Made by a program: the position numbers and the translations under genes. A DNA stretch of 64,000 bases. Origin: a virus. Positions 1,072-11,547 of this stretch are shown here, piece after piece. The notes under the pieces were generated by a model. The model did not search any database, was not told where the DNA came from, and saw nothing but the letters and a program-made list of their open reading frames with translations. The number at the start of each line of letters is the position of its first letter. The first letter of the stretch is position 1. The stretch covers positions 1-64,000 of the IMG/VR virus record IMGVR_UViG_3300023174_000096; one strand, given 5' to 3'.

Positions 1072-1401
1072 AGTGCCCCTCCCACGGAGCGGGGGGTGGT
1101 GGTGTAACCGGGAATCGTCACGGGGGGTGTTACGCCCGTCGAGGCCCGAGCTCGTGTCTTTTCGGGGAGGGGGGCCAGCCCGAAGGGCTGGGGGGTGGGG
1201 GGCCACAAGAAATCGGCCCCCCGCCCGAGGCCCCCCGGACCCCTACGGGGTCCGACCCCCGTCCCGCGCGAGCCCGAGATCCGCTCGTGAGACCCCCCAT
1301 GTCGATTCTTGGTTACGAACCCGCCCCGTGCTCCGTGGGAGGGGCGTAACGACAACGGACCGAGGGCCAACGCGGCCCCACGACCCTCACGGAGAACGAC
1401 C

Positions 1402-2607
1402 ATGACGACCACGAACGCCACCCTCACTTGTGACCTCTGCGGGCACCGCGCCCACAACCTCGTCGGCCACCTCATGGAGGCGCACGGCGTCTCCGAGTCG
1501 GACTACGAGGGGGAGACCGTGAGCCCCGCGCTTGACGCTGCGTTCGCGGCGCACGCGAAGGGCAAGAAGCGCGAGCCGGTCACGGCGGGGCACCGTCTCA
1601 CGACCCGCTTCGCGGGGGTCGAGCTCCCGGTGAACACGGACGTGCCCGTCGAGGCGTGCTTGTCTCTCCCGGAGGGCTACAGCGTCCCCAAGTACGGGAA
1701 GCTGGCGGCGAGCGTGGAGACCGTCACCAAGCGGGTGATGGGGGGCAAGGTCCGCCCGGTGTGGGTGTGGGGGCCTCCGGGCACTGGCAAGGATGCGGTC
1801 ATCTGGGCCATCTCGGCCAAGACCCGCACGCCCGCCGTGACGTTCAACATCAGCCCTTCGGCGGATGTCGAGGGCTGGATCGCCGTCCGTGCCCTCTCCG
1901 ACAAGGGGACGCACTGGGAGGAGGGCGCGCTCTTGAAGGCCCTCCGGGACGGCTACGTCACGCCCAGCGGGCGGCGGGTGGCGATGATCATCATCCTGTC
2001 GGACCTCGACCGGGCGACCCGCGCCCAGATGGAGCCCCTCCGGGCCATCTTGGACAGCCTTGGGGGCCGTATCCAAGGCCCGGACGGGCGCGTCCACAAG
2101 GTGCTGGAAGGCACCCGCATCGTGGCCACTGCCAACACCAGCGGTGGTGGTGACACCACGGGGCGCTACACGTCCACCCCGGTGGATACGTCCCTCATGG
2201 ACCGGGTGACGTTCAAGGTGGCGTTCGCCAACATGGACTCCCGGGACGAGGAACCGATCATCCGGGCGAAGTACAGCGCCCTTTGCGCGCGGTTCACCGA
2301 GGTCGCCCCGACCGTCATGCGCGCCACGACGGCCATCCGTGATGCGATCACCAAGGGTGACCTGTACATGGACTTCGGGCACCGCACGGTCTGCTCGTGG
2401 CTCGATGCCATCGAGAACGAAGCGTCGTTCTACGGGGGCAAGGATGCGTCCAAGGTCATCCGGGCGGGGTTGCAGGACGTGCTGGCGGGGTGCCCCAACG
2501 ATGACACCCGCGAGCAACTGAAGCTCCTCGTGGACCCGCACCTGCGCGGGGGCGCGGTCGAGGAGGGCGACACCTCCCACATCTCCCGCGATCCGCTGGG
2601 GGTCTGA
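1402..2607 (+). CDS. MoxR/CobS/NirQ-type AAA+ ATPase with N-terminal C2H2-like Zn finger
   Basis: Walker A GPPGTGKD, Walker B-like IIILSDLD, VATANTSGGGD, N-terminal CDLC...HLMEAH; SD ggag before ATG 1402. Confidence 0.85.
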   Translation: MTTTNATLTCDLCGHRAHNLVGHLMEAHGVSESDYEGETVSPALDAAFAAHAKGKKREPVTAGHRLTTRFAGVELPVNTDVPVEACLSLPEGYSVPKYGKLAASVETVTKRVMGGKVRPVWVWGPPGTGKDAVIWAISAKTRTPAVTFNISPSADVEGWIAVRALSDKGTHWEEGALLKALRDGYVTPSGRRVAMIIILSDLDRATRAQMEPLRAILDSLGGRIQGPDGRVHKVLEGTRIVATANTSGGGDTTGRYTSTPVDTSLMDRVTFKVAFANMDSRDEEPIIRAKYSALCARFTEVAPTVMRATTAIRDAITKGDLYMDFGHRTVCSWLDAIENEASFYGGKDASKVIRAGLQDVLAGCPNDDTREQLKLLVDPHLRGGAVEEGDTSHISRDPLGV

Positions 2608-2694
2608 CGATTCACGGTTACAACCCCCCCGGCGGCTACGTCGGGGGGTCGAGGCCAAGGGCCATCACGGTTCCAGAGCACAGGAGTCACAGTC

Positions 2695-3696
2695 ATGAAC
2701 ATCAACATCTCGCAAGGCACGGTTCGCCCCTACATCCTCTCTTCCCTCGTCGCTCACGGGGGCGAGGCCCCCGGGGCGACCGTCACCGCCGAGGCCCTCG
2801 TGGCCGTGGGCGCGGACCCGGCGGTTGAGAGCAACCGCCAGCACGTCGCGAACGCCCGCCACGACCTCAAGGGTCGCGGCTGCGTGGTGGACGGAAGCGC
2901 CCGGGGCATGTGGAGGCTCACCGACGCTGGGCGGGCGGTCCACGGTGGGGCTCCCCTCCCCCCCTACGTCCGTGCGCCCAAGGCCGACACCGGGAAGCCC
3001 CTCGTGGAGGTGCTGGGGGAAGCCCCGACCCCCGTCGAGACGGTCGAGCCCGCCCCGGAGCTCGACAAGGTCGAGACGGTCGAGCTCGCTCCCGTCGAGG
3101 AGACCCCGGTGGTGGAGACCCCGGTGGTGGAGCCCGCTCCCGTGGTGGACCTCCCCGCCCCGGTGACCGTCGAGGCTGCGCCCGTCGAGGCTCCCGCCCC
3201 GGTGACCGTCGAGACGGCCCCTGTTGAGCCCGTGGAGGCTGCGCCCGCCACGGCTCCCAAGCGCCGTCTGAAGGTCGCCACGGCGGTCCCGGCGGTGGTC
3301 GTGCCCGAGTGGGTGCAGGACGAGTCCCTCCGCACGATGGTGGTGGAGTCCACCGAGTGCTTCGGGCTCTGGTCCGCCAAGGCCACGGGGTGCGGGGAGT
3401 GCGTGCTGGCGGGGTGGTGCCGCAACGCCAAGGCGGCGACGCTGGAGGTGCTTGCGGGCAAGATCAAGACGGAGACGCCCGCCACCCCCGAGCCCGTCAC
3501 CAAGACGGTCGCCACCCTCGATGCCGAGGTGGGCAAGGGTCTGTCCCCCGATGCCGCCCGCACGGCCCCCAAGCCCGAGGAGGGCTTCACGATCAAGGCC
3601 ACGCACGACACGGTGTGCGGCGTCACGGGTGCGCCCATCCGCAAGGGTGATGCCGTGCGGTACGTCCGGGGGACGGGTCTGGTACTGGTGAAGTGA
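2695..3696 (+). CDS. Hypothetical protein: Mrr_N-like winged helix, Pro/Ala/Glu-rich linker, Cys-cluster domain
   Basis: ARHDLKGRG...RGMWRLTDAGR; PVE/APVE repeats; ECFG...CGEC...WC; SD aggag. Confidence 0.65.
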   Translation: MNINISQGTVRPYILSSLVAHGGEAPGATVTAEALVAVGADPAVESNRQHVANARHDLKGRGCVVDGSARGMWRLTDAGRAVHGGAPLPPYVRAPKADTGKPLVEVLGEAPTPVETVEPAPELDKVETVELAPVEETPVVETPVVEPAPVVDLPAPVTVEAAPVEAPAPVTVETAPVEPVEAAPATAPKRRLKVATAVPAVVVPEWVQDESLRTMVVESTECFGLWSAKATGCGECVLAGWCRNAKAATLEVLAGKIKTETPATPEPVTKTVATLDAEVGKGLSPDAARTAPKPEEGFTIKATHDTVCGVTGAPIRKGDAVRYVRGTGLVLVK

Positions 3697-3729
3697 GGCA
3701 CCCGGGGCGGGTGCTCCCCGCCCCCCCAT

Positions 3730-3838
3730 GACCGTGCCCGTGGCCCCTCCTGCCACGGGCGGCTGGACACCCCTCCCTTGGCCGGTCGTCATCAAGCCAA
3801 GGAAGGGGGACGCGGGTTCAAGTCCCGCGACGGTCACC
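3730..3838 (+). ncRNA. tRNA-like / tmRNA-TLD-like structured RNA
   Basis: Acceptor-like stem GACCGT 3730-35 / ACGGTC 3830-35 + A; T-arm GCGGG-TTCAAGT-CCCGC 3812-28; 9-bp and 13-bp internal hairpins; intergenic. Confidence 0.55.
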
Positions 3839-3879
3839 CCACAACCGAGGGCCACCGTGGCCCCAAGAAGGACACCACC

Positions 3880-4332
3880 ATGCTCGACATCACCGCCCAG
3901 ACTGCCACCATCAACGACCCCAGCGCCCCCATGCCCGCCAAGATCGCGGCGGCGGCGATCCTCTGGGAGACAATTGAACAGTGCGAGAAGGTGCTGGAGA
4001 CCTTCAAGCGGGACGTGCGCGCCGTCGCCGTGGCCACGGGTCGCCCCACGGTCACCCTCGATGGCGCGGGGCTCTCGCAGTGCAAGGTGGTGGTCCCCGG
4101 GCCGTCCCTGCGACTGCGGGAGGGGCTCTCCGTCGAGGGCCAGCGTGCCGCCTTGGGCGAGCTCTTCGACCTCGTCTACGAGGTCAAGCTGAACCTGCGG
4201 AGCACCTCCCCAACCGCCGTCGCGACGTACCCCGCGTCGGTGCAAGCGCACCTCGCCACGGTCGCGTCACTCGTGCCGAACACCCCACGGGTGAGCCTCA
4301 AGACCCTCACGGGCGTCGAAGAGGTGAAGTGA
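3880..4332 (+). CDS. Hypothetical protein
   Basis: Phage-like codon use; ATG after aagga SD and shared leader hairpin. Confidence 0.7.
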   Translation: MLDITAQTATINDPSAPMPAKIAAAAILWETIEQCEKVLETFKRDVRAVAVATGRPTVTLDGAGLSQCKVVVPGPSLRLREGLSVEGQRAALGELFDLVYEVKLNLRSTSPTAVATYPASVQAHLATVASLVPNTPRVSLKTLTGVEEVK

Positions 4333-4375
4333 CGATTCTTGGTTACGGGGTGAGGGGTGTCTCCGTGGTGCGGGT

Positions 4376-4534
4376 ATGAAGCGCATCGACACCCGCTACA
4401 ACCACCGCATCGAGAACCCCACCTCCCGCCGCGCCCTGCGCCTCGCGGTTGACCGCGAGGGAGCTCTCCTCGCCCGCGAGGCCCGCGAGTCTCTCGACGC
4501 CCGCGAGGCCCGCGAGGAGGCTCGCGGGGAGTGA
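4376..4534 (+). CDS. Small early protein (52 aa, MKRIDTRYNH...)
   Basis: ATG exactly 15 nt after CTCCGT box; followed by GC hairpin. Confidence 0.65.
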   Translation: MKRIDTRYNHRIENPTSRRALRLAVDREGALLAREARESLDAREAREEARGE

Positions 4535-4567
4535 CCCCGGCACGGAGAGGGCCTCGGCCCTCTCCGT

Positions 4568-4635
4568 GGGGGGTGCCCAAGTTCTTGTGGTGTCGTCCCG
4601 CCCGGGGGGTCGCATGGAGAACTTGGGCACCCCCC
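4568..4635. repeat. 18-bp inverted repeat (GGGGGGTGCCCAAGTTCT) with 32-nt spacer
   Basis: Arms 4568-4585 and 4618-4635 between convergent genes. Confidence 0.8.
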
Positions 4636-4643
4636 CTCCCCCC

Positions 4644-4781
4644 TCACTCACTCATGAGCCGTTCCCAACTCATTTCGTGAGTGGGGACGTAGGGGATCTT
4701 CCCCCCCGAGCGCCTGCGCTTGCGCGCGGGCTTGGGGGCGGGCTTGGTGACGGGGGCGGTGGCGGGCTTGGTGGCGTTCAT
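4644..4781 (-). CDS. Small basic early protein (45 aa, MNATKPATAP...)
   Basis: ATG 15 nt from minus-strand promoter box. Confidence 0.6.
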   Translation of the reverse strand: MNATKPATAPVTKPAPKPARKRRRSGGKIPYVPTHEMSWERLMSE

Positions 4782-4934
4782 ACCCGCACCACGGAGGCAC
4801 CCCCTCACCCGTAACCAACAATCGACCGTGACCCCCTCGTGTCGATTCTTGGTTACGAACCCGGACCCCGCTACGTCGAGGGAGCGTAACACCACCCGAG
4901 GGCCAACGCGGCCCCACGAACCGAGGAGACTGTC

Positions 4935-5693
4935 ATGGAAGCCATCACCACCCCCGTCGCCACCTTCACCAGCAACCTCTCGCACGCCGTCACCCCCGGC
5001 GTGTGGGAGTTGAGCATCGAGACGCGCTTCATCAGCACCCACTGCGGGTGCTGCGGGCGCTCGCTCAAGACGCCCGAGTCGGTCGAGGCGGGCATCGGCC
5101 CGGAGTGCAGCGCGCGGTACGGGACGCTCACCACCCGCAGCGCGGAGCCCGACATGGTCGCGGCCCGCACCCTCATCGCCAACCTCGGGGCCGGGGTGTT
5201 CGCCCCCGATGTGCTCACCTGCGACGACGCGGCCACCGTCGCGGGGGTGCTCATGCACCGCTTCTCGCGCCACTTCCGCACCTGCCGTTGGATTCCCGAC
5301 GCGGTGTATGCCCTTGGCTACCACAAGGTGGCCGAGCGGATGGCCAAGCGCGCCTCCGTGAAGATCGGGGAGGGCGCGCAGGAGCCCGGTGCGGACGCCC
5401 CCAGCGTCGCCCGCGTGCGCGGCTTCCGGGGCTTCCGCCGCGCCCCCCGCGTCGAGACGGTGACCATCGCCGTCGAGGGCGACACCCTCGTGGTCCGCAC
5501 CCCCTTCAACGAGGGGTTCAACGCGGCCCTCCGCGAGACCGTCGCGGGTCGCCGCTGGGACAGCGCGGCCAAGGCGTGGCGCGTGCCCGCCGCCGCCCGC
5601 CCCGCCCTCTGGACGGCCCTGCGGGGGGCCTTCGCGGGGCTCACCCTCACCAGCCCCAAGGGCGAGAGCGTGATCCCCTCCCTCGCGGACTGA
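4935..5693 (+). CDS. DUF6011-like Zn-finger + HARP-like C-terminal domain protein
   Basis: CGCCGRSLKTPESVEAGIGPEC; GRRWDSAAKAWRVP; SD gaggag. Confidence 0.7.
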   Translation: MEAITTPVATFTSNLSHAVTPGVWELSIETRFISTHCGCCGRSLKTPESVEAGIGPECSARYGTLTTRSAEPDMVAARTLIANLGAGVFAPDVLTCDDAATVAGVLMHRFSRHFRTCRWIPDAVYALGYHKVAERMAKRASVKIGEGAQEPGADAPSVARVRGFRGFRRAPRVETVTIAVEGDTLVVRTPFNEGFNAALRETVAGRRWDSAAKAWRVPAAARPALWTALRGAFAGLTLTSPKGESVIPSLAD

Positions 5694-5742
5694 GGGGCAC
5701 GGGCGGGGGGTGGGGCCGGGGGGGCCACCACCCCCGTTACCG

Positions 5743-5827
5743 ACCCGCTGGTCGGTAAGTTGGGTGTCCGTCTAGGGCGAGATGCGATCCGGCCCCGTAG
5801 GGACACCCAACTTACCGACCAGCGGGT
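5743..5827. repeat. Perfect 27-bp inverted repeat containing palindromic TTACCGACC..GGTCGGTAA sites
   Basis: Arms 5743-5769 and 5801-5827 are exact reverse complements. Confidence 0.9.
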
Positions 5828-5898
5828 AGGTAACCGACCCCACGGCCAAGAAATGCGAATCTTGGTTACGGGGTGGGGGCGGGCTCCGTGGTGTTGGC

Positions 5899-6153
5899 AT
5901 GAACACCACCTTCTACGTCGAGACCGAGACCGAGACTGAGATCGCCCTCACTGTCCAGTGGGGCGTGGAACCGGGCGAGGAGGGCTCGTACTGGAGCCCC
6001 TCCTACCCGCCCCACCCCTTCATCGTGGCGATCAAGACGCCCGAGGGTCTCCCGGTCGAGGAGACCCCCGAGGTCTACCTCGCCGCCGAGCGAGCGATGG
6101 CCGACGCCTTTGAGACCTTTGAGAGCGACTGCGCCGACTACGACGACGAGTGA
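5899..6153 (+). CDS. Small, highly acidic early protein
   Basis: 84 aa, ~20 D/E vs 2 K/R; leaderless after promoter motif. Confidence 0.75.
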   Translation: MNTTFYVETETETEIALTVQWGVEPGEEGSYWSPSYPPHPFIVAIKTPEGLPVEETPEVYLAAERAMADAFETFESDCADYDDE

Positions 6154-6271
6154 GGGACGGGGTGGGGGCGGGCTCTCCCCCCGAGCCCCTATGGAGAACT
6201 TGGGGGCACCCCACCCCCAGACTGCCGACGATTCTTGGTTACGACCTCGCACCCGTCTCCGTGGTGTGAGC

Positions 6272-6679
6272 ATGATGTACGAGCACGAAGACGAAGACCG
6301 CGCCATTCACGAACTCTTCGCGGGGGGCTACCCCGAGCCCTCCCCCGAGGAGTTCGCGGAGATGCTCCGCGAGGCCGAGGCTCTCGACGCGGTGTACCGC
6401 GCCGATGACCTCGCCCGCGCCGCTGCCGCCCGGGCGTTCCGGGAGCCCGCCGCCGCCCTCGCCTTCCTCGTGGAGGCACACGGGGGCGATGACTGCGAGG
6501 GGGAGTGCCCCGCCCCCGTGGAGGTGCTGGAGGTGCTCTCCTGCAACGACGGTAGCGCCATGCGCGCCGTTGTGCGGTGCGCCGACGGCACCACCCGCAC
6601 CGTGGAAGCCAGCATCCACCACTATCCGGGGTCGTTGGAGTGCCCCCCGGACGTGGACGTGAATTACGAGTACCTGTGA
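6272..6679 (+). CDS. Acidic early protein
   Basis: ATG 15 nt after CTCCGT box. Confidence 0.7.
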   Translation: MMYEHEDEDRAIHELFAGGYPEPSPEEFAEMLREAEALDAVYRADDLARAAAARAFREPAAALAFLVEAHGGDDCEGECPAPVEVLEVLSCNDGSAMRAVVRCADGTTRTVEASIHHYPGSLECPPDVDVNYEYL

Positions 6680-6723
6680 GCGATTCTTGGTTACAGAGGG
6701 CCACCCGTCTCCGTGGTGTGAGC

Positions 6724-6870
6724 ATGAACCCCGACGACAGCATGGACATCGACACCGTGGTAGCGGGGATGACCCCCGAGGAGAGGGCCGAGTACCTCGC
6801 GTGGTGCGACGAGCGCCGCGCCGAGGCCCTTGCCTACCAGATGGAACACGAGGAGCCCGAGGAGGGCTGA
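6724..6870 (+). CDS. Small acidic early protein (48 aa)
   Basis: ATG 15 nt after CTCCGT box. Confidence 0.65.
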   Translation: MNPDDSMDIDTVVAGMTPEERAEYLAWCDERRAEALAYQMEHEEPEEG

Positions 6871-6991
6871 CCCGGGCGGGGGGACGGGCTGGGAGGCCCC
6901 GGCCCCGTACCGAGAAATGTGCCCCTGTGACCCCGCGAGGCACGCTGGCGATTCTTGGTTACAACCCCACCCCCCTCTCCGTGGTGAGAGC

Positions 6992-7195
6992 ATGATCCTC
7001 GACACCACGGGCCGCAAGATCAACGTCAACGGCCCGGAGATCAACGAGGCCGTCACCCGCCGGATCGCCACCCTCGTCGGCTTCGGCGTCGAGGTGGAGG
7101 AGATCATCGCCCGGGTGGGGGATACACCCGCCACCCCGGCCCGGTGGATCGCCTTCATGGCCCGCGCCATCGAGGCGGGCACCTACGAGGTGTGA
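6992..7195 (+). CDS. Small early protein (67 aa)
   Basis: ATG 15 nt after CTCCGT box. Confidence 0.7.
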   Translation: MILDTTGRKINVNGPEINEAVTRRIATLVGFGVEVEEIIARVGDTPATPARWIAFMARAIEAGTYEV

Positions 7196-7393
7196 GGGGG
7201 ACGAGGGGGACGAGGGGGGAGGGAGCCGAGAGGCCCCGACCCCCCTCGCCACGCCATCTGATTTCTTGTCGGGGCATCCCCGGCACCGGGAATCGAAGGA
7301 TCGAAGCACCGGGAGGGGTCTGGCGGGGTCAAAGTGTGTTTTGCCCCCTAGCGGGATACCGCCGGGGGGCGTCCACACGCTCCGAACCTTCGA

Positions 7394-7650
7394 TCACCAC
7401 TCCCCGTAGCTGCGACGGCCCCCGCCCTTGCCGTCGCACTCGTCGCAGTAGTGCGGGGAGCACCCCGGGTAGCCGCAGGGGTGCCAGCCGGGGCGGGGGC
7501 GGGGGACTTGGGGGCCGTCCCGCCGACGAGGGCGCGGGCGGCGTCCGCCTTGTCGGCGGGTACAAGCCAGCCCTTCTGGGCGGCGTCCCAGCGCCCGCCG
7601 AGGGCCTTGATCCGAATCACGGTCGCCAGAGCATAGGTGCCCGGATCTCC
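7394..7650 (-). pseudogene. Frameshifted remnant of a DUF5710-like (IKALGGRWD...W) protein with a Cys-rich tail
   Basis: GTYALATVIRIKALGGRWDAAQKGWLVP in one frame, GWHPCGYPGCSPHYCDECDG in another; no clean start. Confidence 0.45.
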
Positions 7651-7718
7651 CGGGCTGGGTTAGTGGTTGGAGAGAGGGTGAACCGCCCGACCGGGATAGC
7701 CCGGTCGGGCGGTGCGTG

Positions 7719-8237
7719 TCACGCCTCCCAGAACCGGGCGAACTTGCCCCTGAAGTGGAGTTTCTCAAGGGCTTTGTGGCTCTGCGCCCATTGCTCCAGA
7801 GTGGTGCCTTGAAACACCCCGTCGGGGTCAGGGTGCTCGGAGTAGTACGCGACCCTCTCCGCATACTCGCGGCGCACCACGTCCATGAAATACACGGGGT
7901 ATTCGCGGGTGAGATCCATGTATCCCCCGGTCCCGGTCTCGAATACCTTGCCGCCGAGGGCCTTGGCCAGCCACGCGAGCATCGCATCGGTGACCATGTA
8001 GCCCACGGCCCCGCGGCGGTGATCCACCGAGATGTGCCCGCGGCTCTCGTACCAAAACTGGACGAGAACCACACCCTGTGGCCCCGCGGGGTTGCGGAGG
8101 ACAGAGCCCTTGTCCGTGAGCTCACCGTCGAGGGTGAGGGCGTCCCCGAAGGTCGCTGAGAGGGCCAGTTGCAGGTGGGCGTGAAACTCGGTGAGGGAGA
8201 TGCGCCTCCGAAACTTGAGGTGCGCCGTGTTGCCCAC
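7719..8237 (-). CDS. Hypothetical protein
   Basis: 172-aa ORF, gagg SD, operon with upstream genes. Confidence 0.7.
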   Translation of the reverse strand: MGNTAHLKFRRRISLTEFHAHLQLALSATFGDALTLDGELTDKGSVLRNPAGPQGVVLVQFWYESRGHISVDHRRGAVGYMVTDAMLAWLAKALGGKVFETGTGGYMDLTREYPVYFMDVVRREYAERVAYYSEHPDPDGVFQGTTLEQWAQSHKALEKLHFRGKFARFWEA

Positions 8238-8239
8238 GT

Positions 8240-8734
8240 TCAGACCTCTTGCGCCCAGGGGAAATCCTTGGGTCCGAGGGGGGCGTGGGTGCCGTCATCG
8301 TTGAAGGCGGGCACGACGTAGGTGTACGAACACCCCTTGGAGGTGTCGAGGTTCGCGCGGGCGCACTCGTTGTGCGTCTTGAGACACTCGGCGTAGTTCG
8401 CGTCGAAGTCTCCTTTCAGGGCGTTGCGAGCCGCCGCGAGGGCCTTGGTGTACTGGACGCGGGCACGGGCCACATCGGGGGTCACAACCCCCTTCATGCC
8501 GTGCTCCAGCCGCAGAACGTGCTCCGCAGCCTTGACCACGGCGTGTGCGAGCATACGCGCCGCGAACGGGAGCCCCAGCGTGGGAGCAGTTTGCGCCATC
8601 CCGGCGAGCATGTTGATCATGCCGTCCTCACGGGCGTAGTGGGCGTCTTTGATCGCCCCCATGAAAACGTGGAGGTCCCCCTCGGTTTCCGGTGCGCGGG
8701 TCGTCTTGCGGGTCGTCTTCGTCTTGTTGGTCAT
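8240..8734 (-). CDS. Hypothetical protein
   Basis: 164-aa ORF, ggag SD. Confidence 0.75.
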   Translation of the reverse strand: MTNKTKTTRKTTRAPETEGDLHVFMGAIKDAHYAREDGMINMLAGMAQTAPTLGLPFAARMLAHAVVKAAEHVLRLEHGMKGVVTPDVARARVQYTKALAAARNALKGDFDANYAECLKTHNECARANLDTSKGCSYTYVVPAFNDDGTHAPLGPKDFPWAQEV

Positions 8735-8752
8735 CGGTGTCTCCGTGAGGGG

Positions 8753-8929
8753 TCAGTAGTTGAGGGTGATGTCCCGGCGCGCGGCGCGCTCCGAGCGGCG
8801 GCGGGCGATGCGCCCCGCCTTGGCGCTCGCCGCCGTGCCCTTGCGGGCGGTGCGGCAGCAGTCGCACTTGGGGCCACCGGGGCCGTGGGGGGCCACGGCG
8901 GCGATGCGGAGCTTCTTGTCAGCGTTCAT
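8753..8929 (-). CDS. Small basic Cys-containing early protein (58 aa, MNADKKLRIA...)
   Basis: ATG 15 nt from minus-strand promoter box; KCDCC. Confidence 0.65.
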   Translation of the reverse strand: MNADKKLRIAAVAPHGPGGPKCDCCRTARKGTAASAKAGRIARRRSERAARRDITLNY

Positions 8930-9033
8930 GCCAGCACCACGGAGAGCGATCCCACCCCGTAACCAAGAATCGTCACGGGGGGCTCACGGTCGATTCTTGG
9001 TTACGAACCCCCCGCCCGCTCCGTGGTGGGGAC

Positions 9034-9469
9034 AGAGACGACGGACGGACAGCACGGAGGTGCAAGTGTCATGGTGAACTGAAGGCGACAATCCGGCAGG
9101 TGTGCAGTGTGACCGCCGGATCGCCCACAAATGGCTGCAAGGGAGACGACGACAGGCGCTCCCCCCAAGTGAAATACGGACCTGTCACCAACCCGAGACC
9201 CGAAAGGGTCGTCCCTGCGATGGTCACACGCCCGGTTCGACTCCGGGTGGCAGGGCTAGCTCGGTCACGTCGGTCTGGGCGAACGTGACACCCAAGAGCC
9301 CCCCCAGACAAGCCTACCTCGCAACTTCGCACGCGAGGGACGGTGTTGGGATGCTGTGCGAGGCGTGGCCCGCCGTGGCGAAGCGGGGCGACTCACCAAG
9401 CCCGAGAGCCCCCGGAAGAGGTGCCCCCGAGACGGGGGAGGAACACCCCCTCCGGGGGCTCTCGCTTTT
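9034..9469 (+). ncRNA. Candidate large structured ncRNA (T-loop arm, GAAA tetraloop, four potential pseudoknots)
   Basis: Perfect early promoter at 8991 with no ATG at the usual position; dense hairpins; terminator-like hairpin + TTTT at 9404-9469. Confidence 0.65.
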
Positions 9470-9580
9470 CGTGGCCGAGAACTTCGGTGTCAGCACTGGG
9501 CAGGCTGCGGCGTCTCTCGTGCGAATCCCTGTTACAACCCCGCCCACGACTCCGTGGTGGGCATGAAGGAGACGAAGACC

Positions 9581-9940
9581 ATGACGACCCTCACGAACCT
9601 CACCCCGCACGCCCTGACCCTCCGCAACCCCGAGACGGGGGTGGAGACGGTCATCCCCCCCAGCGGGACGGTGGCCCGCTGGGCCACCGTGGATTTCGAG
9701 CGGGTGTTGGAGACGGTGCCCGGGGTGCCCGTCCCCGTGGCCTCGGCCCCGGTCTTCGGAGGGGCCGAGGGGCTCCCCGAGCCCACCCCCGGCACCCTCT
9801 TCATCGTGAGCTCCCTCGTCCTGCAAGCCCTCAAGGGCTCGCGCCCGGACGTTCTCGGACCCGGAACGGGGCCGAACGACAACGCGGTGAGGAACGACAA
9901 GGGGCACGTCGTGGCCGTGACCCGGTTGGTTCGCGGGTGA
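9581..9940 (+). CDS. Conserved phage NLTPH-family hypothetical protein
   Basis: NLTPH..IPPSGTVAR..GLPEP..GTLFIVSSLV..RPDVLGP..VRNDKG; SD aaggag (alternative ATG 9563). Confidence 0.75.
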   Translation: MTTLTNLTPHALTLRNPETGVETVIPPSGTVARWATVDFERVLETVPGVPVPVASAPVFGGAEGLPEPTPGTLFIVSSLVLQALKGSRPDVLGPGTGPNDNAVRNDKGHVVAVTRLVRG

Positions 9941-10102
9941 CGGGGCCGGGGGGGAGGGAGGGTGACCGGGGGGTGGGGGGCAGGAGCCTCGCGCCCTCCG
10001 TTGGTGGTCCTAGAAAGTTCTTGGGACGCCCTCGCGCCGATGGATGTGCCACGTTGCGGTGACTTGGGCGGGGCAGACCCGCCCAAGTCACCCCCCGTCT
10101 CA

Positions 10103-10435
10103 TCAGTGGCGGTAACCACCGGGGCAGTGCCAGCCGTCGTCGCAGTCCTCCTCGGCCTCACGGAGGAGCTCATCACAGTCCTCCGCGAGACGGGCGGTGG
10201 TCGTGCCCAGCAGGGCTGCGATGCGGGCGAGGTCGGTGACGACCACCTCTCCCTCCCCGCAGCAGAGGATGCAGTGCGCCTCGATGATGTCCTCCTGCCC
10301 GCGACGGAGGTAGACGTAGGCCATCGAGCCCGGGAGGTCGCCGTCTCGCTCCACCTCCGTGGTGAAGGTGGCGACGGTGAAGGTGGCGACGGTGACGGGG
10401 GCGACGGTGACGGTGGCCATGACGGTGGTGTTCAT
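10103..10435 (-). CDS. Early protein with Thr/Val-repeat N-terminus
   Basis: ATG 15 nt from minus-strand promoter box. Confidence 0.6.
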   Translation of the reverse strand: MNTTVMATVTVAPVTVATFTVATFTTEVERDGDLPGSMAYVYLRRGQEDIIEAHCILCCGEGEVVVTDLARIAALLGTTTARLAEDCDELLREAEEDCDDGWHCPGGYRH

Positions 10436-10527
10436 ACCCTCACGACGGATACGCCCCCCCACCCGTAACCAAGAATCGACGTGACAATCTTCGGTTACGA
10501 CTGCCACCCCGTCTCCGTGGTGAGGGC

Positions 10528-10821
10528 ATGACCTACCCCGAGTACCAGTCGGTCGAGAGCTTCGCCACCTTCCTCTTGGACGACGACCGCACGTCGTTCA
10601 ATCTGGGCGAGGCCCACATGGTCGCCAAGGCCACGGGGGTGAGCAACCTCACCGTGGTGCGGGAGCTCACCGAGGGCTACGGGTTCACCCTCATCCCCCC
10701 CAGCACGCCCAAGGCGGTCCGTGGCTTCACGGCGAACAGCCACAACCGCTGGGAGGGCAACCCCGGTGCGGGCGGCGGTGGCGGCGACTCCCTCACGGGC
10801 TTCGCGGGCCGGGAGGGCTGA
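10528..10821 (+). CDS. Hypothetical early protein
   Basis: ATG 15 nt after CTCCGT box. Confidence 0.75.
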   Translation: MTYPEYQSVESFATFLLDDDRTSFNLGEAHMVAKATGVSNLTVVRELTEGYGFTLIPPSTPKAVRGFTANSHNRWEGNPGAGGGGGDSLTGFAGREG

Positions 10822-10938
10822 CCGAGGGGTGGCCCGGAGGCACCCCGGCCATCCCCTGCCCCAAGAACTTGAACCCACCCGAGCGTAGGCACGTCGATTC
10901 TCGGTTACGAACCCGGGGGGGACTCCGTGGTGAGGGGC

Positions 10939-11148
10939 ATGACCACGGTCGCGAAAATCCTCAAAGGAGTCGGCAACCCCCACCTCTCCCTCTACAAGGG
11001 GGAAGGGTACTGGTACTTCGCCTTCGACGACGGGGGGTCTCGCCACGAGACCCGGTCGGTCATGGTCCTGCGCCTCTCCCACCTGTCCCTCGACCAGTGG
11101 GTCGCGGAGGGACGAGCCCTCGTCGCCCTCGTGGAAGAGGGGGGCTGA
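10939..11148 (+). CDS. Small early protein
   Basis: LSLYKGEGYWYF; ATG 16 nt after promoter box. Confidence 0.7.
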   Translation: MTTVAKILKGVGNPHLSLYKGEGYWYFAFDDGGSRHETRSVMVLRLSHLSLDQWVAEGRALVALVEEGG

Positions 11149-11286
11149 CAGGGACAGGGGGTGTCACCCACCCCCCGCCCCCACGGGCGTAACAAGAAAT
11201 CGGGGGGCACCCCCCACCCCGACCCGAAGCCGGGGACGGCGGTCGATTCTCGGTTACAGACACCACACTCACTCCGTGGAGAGAGC

Positions 11287-11547
11287 ATGAACACGCTGCA
11301 AATCATCACGCAGGACGGGGGCTTCCTCCCCCTCTACGTCGGCACCATCGCCACGGGCTCCCACAAGGGGGCGAGGCGGGTCACCAAGCAGGTGGCCACC
11401 CTCGCCGCCCACTTCCCCGACGCCCGCATCGAGGTGCTCACCAAGCGCGGGTGGGAGCCCCGCCGAATCGTCAAGATCGGCAAGTCGTACTACACCCGGG
11501 TCGCCCCCGGCCCGGTCCTCTCCCCCAGCTTCTACGGGGAGGTGTGA
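11287..11547 (+). CDS. Small early protein
   Basis: ATG 15 nt after CTCCGT box. Confidence 0.7.
   Translation: MNTLQIITQDGGFLPLYVGTIATGSHKGARRVTKQVATLAAHFPDARIEVLTKRGWEPRRIVKIGKSYYTRVAPGPVLSPSFYGEV

What the first reader, a model, noticed from the sequence alone, without database searches (positions are those of the whole stretch)
9034..9469. Unannotated ~430-nt multi-pseudoknot RNA under its own early promoter
Seen: a consensus early promoter (8991-9028) whose expected start (~9034) has no ATG and no phage-like ORF. Instead there are hairpins 9084-9125, 9141-9163, GACCC-GAAA-GGGTC, a T-arm CCCGG-TTCGACT-CCGGG (9231-47) closed by CCCTGC/GCAGGG, 9264-9289, 9317-9338, and a long terminal hairpin + TTTT. 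Four hairpin-internal segments have distal complements: GTGTGACC 9107-14 / GGTCACAC 9222-29; GACAGG 9151-56 / CCTGTC 9181-86; GTCTGGG 9273-79 / CCCAGAC 9303-09; TCGCAC 9327-32 / GTGCGA 9356-61. Inference: a compactly folded large ncRNA (ribozyme, decoy or ribosome-interacting RNA). It is superficially tmRNA-like (T-arm, 4 pseudoknots, AAUGGCU-GCA 11 nt after a stem) but lacks a proper terminal acceptor stem.
Basis: partly seen in the sequence, partly recalled or inferred. Interest (0 to 1): 0.75.

Follow-up and report, generated by a model that had tools for sequence, protein, structure and literature searches.

The report
Modular phage RNA with tRNA mimic
A giant freshwater phage has, behind one of its early promoters, a roughly 440-base stretch that codes for no protein and most likely makes an RNA built from a conserved folded front part, an anticodon-less tRNA look-alike and a variable tail; it fits no described RNA family and its job is still unknown.

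Summary
The region 8930-9563 is non-coding. One of 12 near-identical early promoter motifs points into it, and it is the only copy not followed by an ATG. Rfam and ARAGORN find nothing, so it is not a tmRNA.

The fold is not better than chance on this sequence alone (MFE z -1.65; loop-to-distal complements P about 0.09). The support comes from comparison with relatives.
- The 5' domain (9066-9193) recurs in a related 485-kb phage.
- One claimed pseudoknot (GACAGG/CCTGTC) is plausible.
- The 9107/9222 pseudoknot is not supported.
- The two 3' pseudoknots are not conserved, and a natural strain variant replaces that part.

The T-arm belongs to a dispersed family of anticodon-less tRNA look-alikes in this phage clade. 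Their stems covary and their 3' flanks are CCA or CTA. RNA-library contigs from two studies lie only inside the unit, which is weak evidence of transcription.

My best reading is a modular early RNA whose tRNA-like module is a handle for tRNA-processing enzymes. That mechanism is inferred. Earlier notes of this scan describe similar tRNA look-alikes in other phages.

The parts
8991..9028 (+). Early promoter motif (cgattcttggttac, 14-nt spacer, CTCCGTGGTG). Its upstream half forms a palindrome with 8959-8972, which belongs to the divergent minus-strand copy.
   Evidence: There are 12 copies in G000 between 1 and 11.3 kb. Eleven are followed by an ATG at +3 to +6; this copy is not.
9034..9469 (+). 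Predicted non-coding transcription unit of about 436 nt, running from the inferred start to the U-tract.
   Evidence: There is no codon periodicity and the ORFs have flat GC1-3. RNA-library contigs cover 9042-9225 and 9174-9353 and none lies on the flanks. Rfam and ARAGORN find nothing.
9066..9193 (+). Conserved 5' domain.
   Evidence: It is 69% identical over 107 nt to W01:58911-59023(-). Covariance model R2 scores 130 bits in both phages and finds it nowhere else. A strain variant keeps 9063-9193 identical while replacing 9194-9530.
9084..9125 (+). Hairpin H1 (GGCGA/TCGCC, TCCGGC/GCCGGA, GGT/ACC).
   Evidence: Of 14 bp, 3 pairs changed on both sides, 1 changed on one side (to U-G, which is allowed only on the + strand) and none is broken between the window and W01.
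9073..9161 (+). Closing helix P1: 9073-76 plus 9079-81 pair with 9153-55 plus 9157-59 and 9161.
   Evidence: RNAalifold predicts it on aligned columns. Of 7 bp, 2 changed on both sides and 1 on one side (G-U in the window), with none broken.
9151..9186 (+). Candidate pseudoknot helix GACAGG (9151-56) with CCTGTC (9181-86). It overlaps the P1 3' strand, so the two exclude each other.
   Evidence: W01 has GGTGGG/CCCACC, which is 3 compensatory pairs. The 3' strand is not column-aligned, and its chance occurrence in the C-rich 70 nt is about 0.10.
9197..9210 (+). GAAA-capped hairpin.
   Evidence: Read directly from the sequence. Tetraloop-capped arms (GNRA or UUCG) recur next to T-arms in related elements in G001, L215 and G003.
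9213..9258 (+). tRNA-like element: closing stem CCCTGC/GCAGGG, a 12-nt 5' bulge, the T-arm 9231-47 (CCCGG-TTCGACT-CCGGG), then G-CTA. An alternative 7-bp acceptor, CCTGTCA 9181-87 with TGGCAGG 9248-54, would give a tRNA-sized element of 75 nt.
   Evidence: It is 86% identical to the G003 element at L098 1480-1523, which stands alone in another intergenic gap, keeps the T-stem through C-G to G-C and C-G to U-G changes, and ends G-CCA. The strict descriptor finds the alternative acceptor.
9264..9361 (+). Variable 3' region holding hairpins 9264-89 and 9317-38 and their downstream complements.
   Evidence: The complements are exact. No homologue was found in any relative, and a strain variant replaces the region.
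9400..9469 (+). Long GC-rich irregular hairpin followed by UUUU; a probable intrinsic terminator.
   Evidence: It is present in the MFE fold and in the sequence. The consensus scan did not call it.
9522..9940 (+). Next promoter copy (9522-9559) and the downstream gene (ATG 9563 or 9581, ending at 9940), a Crn4b-like ring nuclease.
   Evidence: Promoter. Structure model pLDDT 94; Foldseek E 2e-8 and TM about 0.7 to Crn4. phmmer E 8e-5 to Crn4b.
3729..3836 (+). Second tRNA-like element of this phage, in the intergenic gap 3697-3879. It has a 7-bp acceptor TGACCGT/ACGGTCA, two arms (one with loop CCCUCCU) and a 6-bp T-arm.
   Evidence: The fold z-score is -4.3.

Best explanation
This is a real, early, non-coding RNA gene of a freshwater huge phage. 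It starts at about 9034 and ends at the 9400-9469 hairpin and U-tract. It is assembled from three modules.

1. A conserved 130-nt 5' domain. Hairpin H1 is closed by helix P1, and P1 can alternatively give up its 3' strand to a downstream pseudoknot partner.
2. An anticodon-less tRNA look-alike, made of an acceptor-type stem and a perfect T-arm.
3. A lineage-variable hairpin region and a terminator.

Inferred mechanism: the tRNA-like module is recognised by the enzymes that handle the top half of tRNAs, namely RNase P, RNase Z or 3' trimming, and the CCA-adding enzyme. Recognition would give the RNA defined, protected ends or release the 5' domain as a stable small RNA. The same kind of element sits between cistrons elsewhere in this phage clade. 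The 5' domain would be the payload, and its target is unknown.

Shown: the non-coding character, the promoter logic, conservation and covariation of H1 and P1, and the existence and covariation of the tRNA-like family.

Inferred: the transcript ends, the processing, and any function.
For: - Promoter family: this is the only copy without an ATG.
- Non-coding: no codon signal, substitutions against W01 are not codon-phased (16/13/10), and a 1-nt indel lies inside the conserved block.
- 5' domain: the homologue in W01 has compensatory changes in H1 and P1, including G-U pairs that fit only the + strand. Model R2 finds one copy each in G000 and W01.
- tRNA-like family, motif level: 17 of 30 GGTTCRANTCC sites that ARAGORN does not call a tRNA, in five related genomes, have a full 5-bp T-stem, against 7% in the null (p 2e-12).
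- tRNA-like family, acceptor level: six elements with a 7-bp acceptor against one in the reversed controls.
- Near-identical copy in G003: it lies in a different gap and shows T-stem covariation.
- 3' flanks are CCA or CTA, as in these phages' real tRNA genes.
- Several elements lie 36-47 nt upstream of the next start codon.
- G000 and G003 encode a class II nucleotidyltransferase domain, the PolyA_pol/CCA-adding family.
- RNA-library contigs from two studies lie only inside the unit.
- Precedents: plant mitochondrial t-elements are cut by RNase P and RNase Z (PMC1920247). The tRNA-like module of M. smegmatis YrlA is cut by RNase P and receives CCA (PMC4201824).
Against: - Only one homologue of the 5' domain exists, so covariation rests on two sequences.
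- The fold statistics of the single sequence are weak.
- The RNA contigs have depth 2-3, carry no strand information and could be DNA carry-over.
- One RNA contig (9174-9353) runs uncut through the tRNA-like module, and the other ends at 9225, which is not a module boundary.
- This copy of the module has a G-G mismatch or internal loop next to the T-stem and CTA instead of CCA.
- No downstream ORF follows it, unlike the inter-cistronic copies.
- No cleavage data exist.
Confidence: 0.45

Rival explanations
1. Anti-defence tRNA decoy. The RNA, through its tRNA top-half mimic, soaks up a host defence enzyme that attacks or modifies tRNA acceptor ends or T-arms, or otherwise blocks a defence. It would be expressed early alongside other counter-defence genes.
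For: It lies in the early region directly upstream of a Crn4b-like ring nuclease, a likely anti-CRISPR or anti-CBASS enzyme (PMC12830947). tRNA-like elements also lie within about 60-450 nt of the homologous gene in G003, L265 and L215. The arms are capped by stable tetraloops instead of anticodon loops, which fits a non-decoding mimic.
Against: No defence system or target is identified. The association with the ring nuclease is not universal: W01 has the RNA but no such gene, and L194 has the gene but no element. A literature search found no described phage acceptor-stem decoy.
Confidence: 0.2
2. No dedicated RNA function. The gap is regulatory spacer DNA between divergent early genes, holding promoters, an operator palindrome and a terminator, plus a decaying tRNA-gene remnant. 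The hairpins are what GC-rich sequence gives by chance.
For: The fold and pseudoknot statistics are near chance. The 3' half is not conserved and a strain variant replaces it. The family is very small.
Against: A full promoter copy fires into the gap and a terminator closes it. The 5' domain is conserved with compensatory changes in a phage whose PhoH-like protein is only 67% identical to this phage's and whose flanking genes differ. The tRNA-like element is 86% identical in G003 although the surrounding intergenic sequence is unalignable. The same strain variant that replaces the 3' part keeps the 5' domain identical.
Confidence: 0.15
3. Cis-acting leader. The 5' domain acts on its own transcription complex or transcript, as a processive antiterminator like HK022 put RNA or as a riboswitch-like element. 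Transcription from the 9019 promoter would then read through the 9400-9469 hairpin into the ring-nuclease gene.
For: It lies immediately downstream of an early promoter and upstream of a terminator and a gene. Two mutually exclusive helices, P1 and GACAGG/CCTGTC, both fit the W01 sequence, which looks like a switch. In W01 the domain heads a leader of about 1 kb before a gene. The comparison with put RNA is from my own knowledge.
Against: The downstream gene has its own full promoter copy. There is no similarity to any Rfam cis-regulatory family. The downstream genes in the two phages are unrelated.
Confidence: 0.08
4. Y-RNA-like RNA (YrlA type). A stem with a Ro-binding motif plus a tRNA-like module would tether a host Ro/Rsr protein.
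For: The 5' strand of P1 reads GGUGAAC (GGCGAAC in W01), which is close to the GNCGAA motif of bacterial Y RNAs. YrlA RNAs carry a tRNA-like module with a T-arm that RNase P cuts and that receives CCA (PMC4201824).
Against: No TROVE/Ro gene is found in G000, in the complete 485-kb W01 or in six other related records. No Y-RNA-type Rfam family matched, even at E up to 10. The window has U where the motif needs C. The tRNA-like module lies outside the P1-closed domain, and in W01 it is about 650 nt away.
Confidence: 0.06
5. A divergent or degenerate tmRNA.
For: It has a T-arm, several candidate pseudoknots, and GCA after an A-rich stretch. A related phage, G004, does encode a tmRNA.
Against: - ARAGORN, which also searches permuted forms, and Rfam find nothing.
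- The T-arm is internal and is closed by an adjacent 5' strand.
- There is no G3:U70.
- The candidate tag ends in PPK, and its frame is broken by an indel against W01.
- The G004 tmRNA shares no similarity with this region.
Confidence: 0.02
6. An unannotated small protein gene spans the region (for example ORF 9102-9566).
For: Open frames of 62-154 codons exist.
Against: GC1/2/3 is flat at 0.63-0.70. There is no ATG at the promoter's start point. Substitutions are not codon-phased, and the conserved block contains a frameshifting indel.
Confidence: 0.02

Closest known systems
t-elements of plant mitochondria (Forner et al. 2007, PMC1920247)
   Same: Both are non-decoding tRNA-like folds with a conserved GGTTCRANYCC T-arm. 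Both are dispersed in transcribed non-coding DNA next to mRNA ends. In mitochondria they serve as RNase P and RNase Z cleavage signals and can accumulate as stable small RNAs.
   Different: The setting is organellar rather than phage. Here no transcript ends are mapped. This copy is embedded in a longer RNA with a separate conserved domain.
Bacterial Y RNAs of the YrlA type (Chen et al. 2014, PMC4201824)
   Same: Both are modular non-coding RNAs that combine a protein-binding stem with a tRNA-like module containing a T-arm. The M. smegmatis module is cut by RNase P and receives CCA. The 5' strand of P1 resembles the GNCGAA motif.
   Different: No Ro/TROVE gene is nearby or anywhere in the related records. 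The module lies outside the stem-closed domain. There is no Rfam match. The RNA is 3-4 times longer.
tmRNA (tRNA-like domain plus pseudoknots)
   Same: Both have an acceptor-type stem directly stacked on a T-arm with a loop replacing the D-arm, and both have H-type pseudoknot candidates in tandem.
   Different: Here the acceptor is not terminal, and there is no alanine identity pair, no tag reading frame and no detection by ARAGORN or Rfam. A relative's true tmRNA is unrelated.
Phage T4 stable RNAs C and D (species 1 and 2) of the tRNA cluster
   Same: Both are phage-encoded, tRNA-sized or tRNA-like RNAs that do not decode, are processed with the tRNA machinery and have no known function.
   Different: The T4 RNAs lie inside a tRNA gene cluster. 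This element lies in an early region of a genome fragment with no tRNA genes and is part of a 436-nt unit.
Large phage-associated structured RNAs GOLLD and ROOL (from my own knowledge)
   Same: Both are long non-coding RNAs of phages or prophages that are often adjacent to or contain tRNAs and have no known function.
   Different: No family of the Rfam release searched, at gathering or E-value threshold, matches here. This RNA has a much smaller family, and only its 5' 130 nt are conserved.

Membership tests
tmRNA | Detected by tmRNA models (Rfam tmRNA clan; ARAGORN, including permuted forms) | tested here: not met
   There are no matches at gathering score or at E up to 10. ARAGORN finds 0 genes in the window and in the whole 105-kb record. 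ARAGORN does find a tmRNA in relative G004.
tmRNA | A terminal 7-bp acceptor stem formed by the 5' and 3' ends, with G3:U70 and an ACCA end | tested here: not met
   The T-arm is internal. The stem is closed by an adjacent strand (9213-18 or 9181-87). Position 3 is C-G or U-A, and the 3' flank is G-CTA.
tmRNA | A conserved tag reading frame ending in a hydrophobic degron | tested here: not met
   The candidate frame ends ...APPK. W01 differs by a 1-nt indel inside it.
Canonical tRNA | A cloverleaf with a D-arm and a 7-nt anticodon loop (U33, purine 37) | tested here: not met
   ARAGORN finds nothing. The only internal arm is a 5-bp stem with a GAAA tetraloop.
Canonical tRNA | A T-arm (5-bp stem, TTCRANY loop, G53-C61) stacked on a 7-bp acceptor stem | tested here: met
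   CCCGG-TTCGACT-CCGGG at 9231-47. The 7-bp acceptor CCTGTCA/TGGCAGG follows directly, and there is a 6-bp local alternative.
Y RNA (YrlA type) | Encoded near, or together with, a Ro60/Rsr (TROVE) gene | tested here: not met
   PF05731 is absent from G000, W01 (485 kb, all searched) and six related records. The positive controls ring.
Y RNA (YrlA type) | A GNCGAA(N0-1)G motif in the 5' strand of the terminal stem | tested here: inconclusive
   The window has GGUGAACUG and W01 has GGCGAACCAG. The match is near but not exact.
Any Rfam 15 family (GOLLD, ROOL, riboswitches and others) | Covariance-model match | tested here: not met
   No gathering-score matches in the 64-kb window. Only hairpin noise in 8700-9800 at E up to 10. 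Nothing at E up to 0.1 in the homologous loci L031, L098 and L009.
t-element-like processing signal | A non-canonical tRNA-like fold with a conserved T-arm motif in transcribed non-coding sequence | tested here: met
t-element-like processing signal | Transcript ends coincide with the element's ends (RNase P or RNase Z cleavage) | not testable with these tools
   Only assembled RNA contigs were available. They cannot show ends, and one contig spans the element.

The most novel reading that the evidence does not exclude
The unit is the founding member of a new class of modular early phage RNAs. In this reading the conserved 5' domain switches between two helices that both fit the covariation, P1 and GACAGG/CCTGTC. 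The freed CCTGTCA strand then decides whether the neighbouring element forms a full 7-bp acceptor stem and becomes a tRNA-sized mimic, or collapses into the short local stem. That would make it a conformational switch that turns a tRNA decoy or processing handle on and off during infection. It may work as RNA-based counter-defence beside the ring nuclease gene.
Probability: 0.1. Interest if true: 0.85.

Novelty: new variant of a known kind. Interest (0 to 1): 0.5.

Why it matters
Huge phages are known for carrying tRNAs and tmRNAs, but their other non-coding RNAs are almost uncharted. This unit adds a conserved structured RNA domain with no family assignment. It also adds to the cases of anticodon-less tRNA look-alikes in phage early regions. 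If these elements are read by RNase P, RNase Z and CCA-adding enzymes, phages would be using the mitochondrial trick of tRNA punctuation to shape or protect their early transcripts. If they are decoys, they would be a new kind of RNA-based counter-defence. Either outcome can be tested with simple in vitro assays.

Tried and rejected
- **Known families.** Rfam at gathering and E-value thresholds gave nothing useful on the window or on the homologous loci. ARAGORN gave nothing on the window, the whole record or the homologous loci.
- **BLAST for relatives.** blastn of the region against 50,697 phage records found no match. tblastn of the downstream protein against the same records found none.
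- **Exact-pattern scans for more 5'-domain homologues.** I scanned viral contigs, metagenome contigs and 185,579 species genomes (rescored with model R2). They returned only the 485-kb relative, which appears under three names, plus chance hits.
- **Model R2 elsewhere.** R2 over eight related records and 54 loci around ring-nuclease homologues found nothing new.
- **Model R1.** This model, built from the two near-identical tRNA-like elements, was too sequence-specific to find the other elements. I used a descriptor script instead.
- **attP hypothesis (a copy of a host tRNA 3' end).** No species genome holds the 23-nt T-arm plus acceptor string. All elements have their own covarying 5' strand.
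- **Template-repeat idea.** I checked whether the region could be a DGR template for the variable cassettes noted elsewhere in this genome. It has no similarity to them.
- **Antisense target in the 105-kb record.** The best complementary match is 14 nt with E 0.7.
- **Synteny.** The genes flanking the RNA are unrelated in W01 and G001.
- **Comparison with the relative's tmRNA.** There is no similarity.
- **Chance matches.** The matches in G002 and G003:118792 lie in coding sequence.
- **RNA contigs.** The absence of RNA contig cover over 9354-9469 and over the flanking genes is not evidence of absence.

Full report
**What the window is.** The window is the first 64 kb of a 105.5-kb virus record. 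It has 66% G+C and CheckV rates it about 24% complete. Its nearest relatives are uncultured huge phages: LR745208.1 (485 kb, called W01 here; its PhoH-like protein is 67% identical) and IMG/VR contigs G001 to G006. The sequence-run index lists the stretch in DNA runs labelled freshwater, lake-water, synthetic or plain metagenome, 10 studies in all counting possible source samples; only X10 (freshwater) and X13 (labelled metagenome) were laid.

**The observation.** The gap 8930-9563 lies between a minus-strand gene that starts at 8929 and a plus-strand gene that starts at 9563 or 9581. The gap has no third-position GC bias. ORFs across it have GC1/2/3 of 0.63-0.70, whereas the neighbouring genes have GC3 of 0.85-0.93.

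The promoter claim is sound. The motif cGATTCTTGGTTAC-N14-CTCCGTGGTG occurs 12 times in the first 11.3 kb. Eleven copies are followed 3-6 nt later by an ATG, which is the arrangement of leaderless genes. The copy at 8991-9028 alone runs into AGAGAC at 9034. A long irregular GC-rich hairpin and UUUU close the unit at 9400-9469, although the simple consensus scan does not call it a terminator. A further promoter copy at 9522-9559 then serves the next gene.

**Is the fold more than chance?** On this sequence alone it is not. The MFE z-score is -1.65. In 500 dinucleotide shuffles, hairpin loops find a distal complement of 6 nt or more almost as often as in the real sequence: 5 of 7 real loops against a mean of 2.7, P about 0.09. 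The case therefore rests on comparison with relatives.

**The 5' domain.** Window 9071-9175 aligns at 69% identity with W01:58914-59018 on the minus strand. The region in W01 is also non-coding, a gap of about 1 kb. RNAalifold on the two sequences keeps hairpin H1: of 14 bp, three pairs changed on both sides, one changed to U-G, and none is broken.

P1 pairs 9073-81 with 9153-61: of 7 bp, two are compensatory, one is a G-U change, and none is broken. The G-U pairs are allowed only on the + strand. Substitutions are not codon-phased, and a 1-nt indel sits inside the most conserved block, CCCCCCAAGUGAAAU.

- **Pseudoknot 2 (GACAGG/CCTGTC).** It becomes GGTGGG/CCCACC in W01, which is three compensatory pairs. 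However, the 3' strand is displaced by an inserted hairpin, and its chance occurrence in that C-rich stretch is about 10%. It also overlaps the P1 3' strand, so the two helices exclude each other.
- **Hairpin 9141-63.** It has a broken pair in W01.
- **Pseudoknot 1 (9107-14/9222-29).** It is not supported. The W01 partner lies about 200 nt away with chance about 15%. G003 keeps GGTCACAC in its copy of the tRNA-like element with no H1 anywhere near.
- **Pseudoknots 3 and 4.** They have no homologue anywhere.

A covariance model of the domain scores 130 bits in G000 and in W01. It finds nothing in six other related records, in 54 loci around homologues of the downstream gene, or in pattern hits from 185,579 species genomes. 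Exact-pattern scans of the viral and metagenome collections found only W01 again.

**The tRNA-like element.** The element at 9213-9258 is 86% identical to one in G003 (L098 1480-1523). There it stands alone in a 120-nt gap downstream of the ortholog of gene 9581, keeps its T-stem through C-G to G-C and C-G to U-G changes, and ends G-CCA. G003 has a second element in the next gap, with stem TAGCCACC/GGTGGCTA followed by A-CCA. G001 has one with an identical 17-nt T-arm closed by different stems. W01 has one at the 3' end of its 1-kb non-coding region, ending GCAAGTT-G-CCA. G000 itself has another at 3729-3836, with a fold z-score of -4.3.

Across five related genomes, 17 of 30 GGTTCRANTCC sites that ARAGORN does not call a tRNA have a complete 5-bp stem. 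The null rate is 7% (p 2e-12). A strict descriptor, requiring a T-arm plus a 7-bp acceptor directly following, finds six non-tRNA elements against one in reversed-sequence controls.

In the window that descriptor pairs CCTGTCA (9181-87) with TGGCAGG (9248-54). This gives a 75-nt, tRNA-sized element whose only internal arm is the GAAA-capped hairpin. The same plan, acceptor plus tetraloop-capped arm plus T-arm, recurs in G003, G001, L215 and L265. The 3' flanks are CCA or CTA, as at these phages' real tRNA genes. Several elements lie 36-47 nt upstream of the next start codon. No species genome contains the 23-nt T-arm plus acceptor string, so the element is not a copy of a known host tRNA end.

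**Modularity and transcription.** A DNA contig from one metagenome run (X13) matches 9063-9193 exactly and then replaces 9194-9530 with 166 other bases. So the 5' domain and the rest of the unit are separable in nature. Two RNA libraries from different studies each hold one contig from this stretch: 9042-9225 with 2 differences, and 9174-9353 with 0 differences. Both lie inside the predicted unit, and no well-matching RNA contig lies on the roughly 430 and 530 flanking bases. Depth is only 2-3, contigs carry no strand or end information, and DNA carry-over cannot be excluded. This is weak support for transcription. One contig crosses the tRNA-like element uncut.

**What it is not.**
- **Not a tmRNA.** No model detects it, the acceptor is not terminal, it lacks G3:U70 and a credible tag, and it has no similarity to the genuine tmRNA of relative G004.
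- **Not a decoding tRNA.**
- **Y RNA unlikely.** A YrlA-type Y RNA is an attractive analogy because the 5' strand of P1 reads GGYGAAC and a tRNA-like module is present. But no Ro/TROVE gene exists in any of the eight records, and the module lies outside the stem-closed domain.
- **Not protein-coding**.

**Most likely mechanism (inferred).** The unit is an early non-coding RNA. Its tRNA top-half mimic would be read by RNase P, by 3' trimming enzymes or RNase Z, and by the CCA-adding enzyme. Two precedents back this. Plant mitochondrial t-elements are processed this way (PMC1920247). The tRNA-like module of M. smegmatis YrlA is cut by RNase P and receives CCA (PMC4201824). G000 and G003 also encode a class II nucleotidyltransferase domain inside a large polyprotein. 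Processing would define or protect RNA ends, or release the conserved 5' domain, whose own target is unknown.

The main rival is a tRNA decoy for host defence. This is suggested by the neighbouring gene, which I find to be a Crn4b-like ring nuclease (PMC12830947).

The chain of mutually exclusive helices could make the RNA a switch. The chain runs P1, GACAGG/CCTGTC, CCTGTCA/TGGCAGG, CCCTGC/GCAGGG. This is speculation, because W01 does not have the tRNA-like element next to the 5' domain.

**Novelty.** The 5' domain has no described family and only two members so far. The tRNA-like element belongs to a kind already known from organelles and Y RNAs. Earlier notes of this scan report the same kind in several other phages (e1-5406880, e1-5390565, e1-3539742, e1-5948353, e1-5894583). 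Those notes are unverified leads and are not counted as evidence here.

Noticed in passing
window 9563/9581-9940 (+): The gene right after the RNA unit is a Crn4b-like ring nuclease. The AlphaFold model has pLDDT 94. Foldseek gives E 2e-8 and TM about 0.7 to Crn4 structures 9sma, 9qs9 and 9r7b. phmmer gives E 8e-5. The NLTPH motif fits the catalytic T13/H15 of Crn4. It is a likely phage anti-CRISPR (type III) or anti-CBASS enzyme. About 600 homologues exist in metagenomes.
   Followed up: partly
window 1084-11287: There are 12 copies of one promoter motif with a fixed 14-nt spacer. Most are followed by an ATG 5 nt after the motif, the arrangement of leaderless genes. Several sit as back-to-back divergent pairs sharing a 14-bp palindrome. 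The motif is absent from relatives G001-G004 and W01.
   Followed up: partly
window 3729-3836 (+): A second anticodon-less tRNA look-alike lies in the gap 3697-3879. One of its arms carries the 7-nt loop CCCUCCU, which looks like an anti-Shine-Dalgarno sequence. The fold z-score is -4.3.
   Followed up: partly
L104 1146-1522 (G004:118308-118684): A related phage contig encodes a standard one-piece tmRNA with tag ANDNAVPAFAAAA.
   Followed up: no
L009 1530-1640 (G001:~245110-245220): A perfect (GTGTC)n tandem repeat of about 20 copies directly follows the tRNA-like element of G001.
   Followed up: no
window 9194-9530: A natural strain variant, seen in DNA contig record 10 of run X13, replaces this stretch with 166 unrelated bases while keeping 9063-9193 identical. 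The replacing sequence could not be read.
   Followed up: no
G000:79374-79835 (-), beyond the window (L189): A PolyA_pol head domain (class II nucleotidyltransferase, the CCA-adding/poly(A) polymerase family) is embedded in an ORF of over 980 aa (open frame 1322 aa) next to an Ntn-hydrolase-like domain. G003 has the same.
   Followed up: partly
W01 (LR745208.1) 7629-7702 and 142332-142402: ARAGORN calls a UAA-reading suppressor tRNA (anticodon tta) and a tRNA with a 4-nt anticodon (ttta) among the 36 tRNA genes of the 485-kb relative.
   Followed up: no
L098 ~1000, ~1914; L093 and L111 minus strand (G003): A repeated motif, TAATGGACCCCCC...CCGGTTAGGGGG, follows stop codons and tRNA-like elements in G003's early region. 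It may be that phage's own terminator or promoter signal.
   Followed up: no
tRNA genes and tRNA-like elements of W01, G001, G003 and the window: The three bases after the discriminator are CTA unusually often: about 5 of roughly 30 tRNA genes and 3 tRNA-like elements. This is in addition to the encoded CCA cases, and hints at a shared 3'-processing signal.
   Followed up: no
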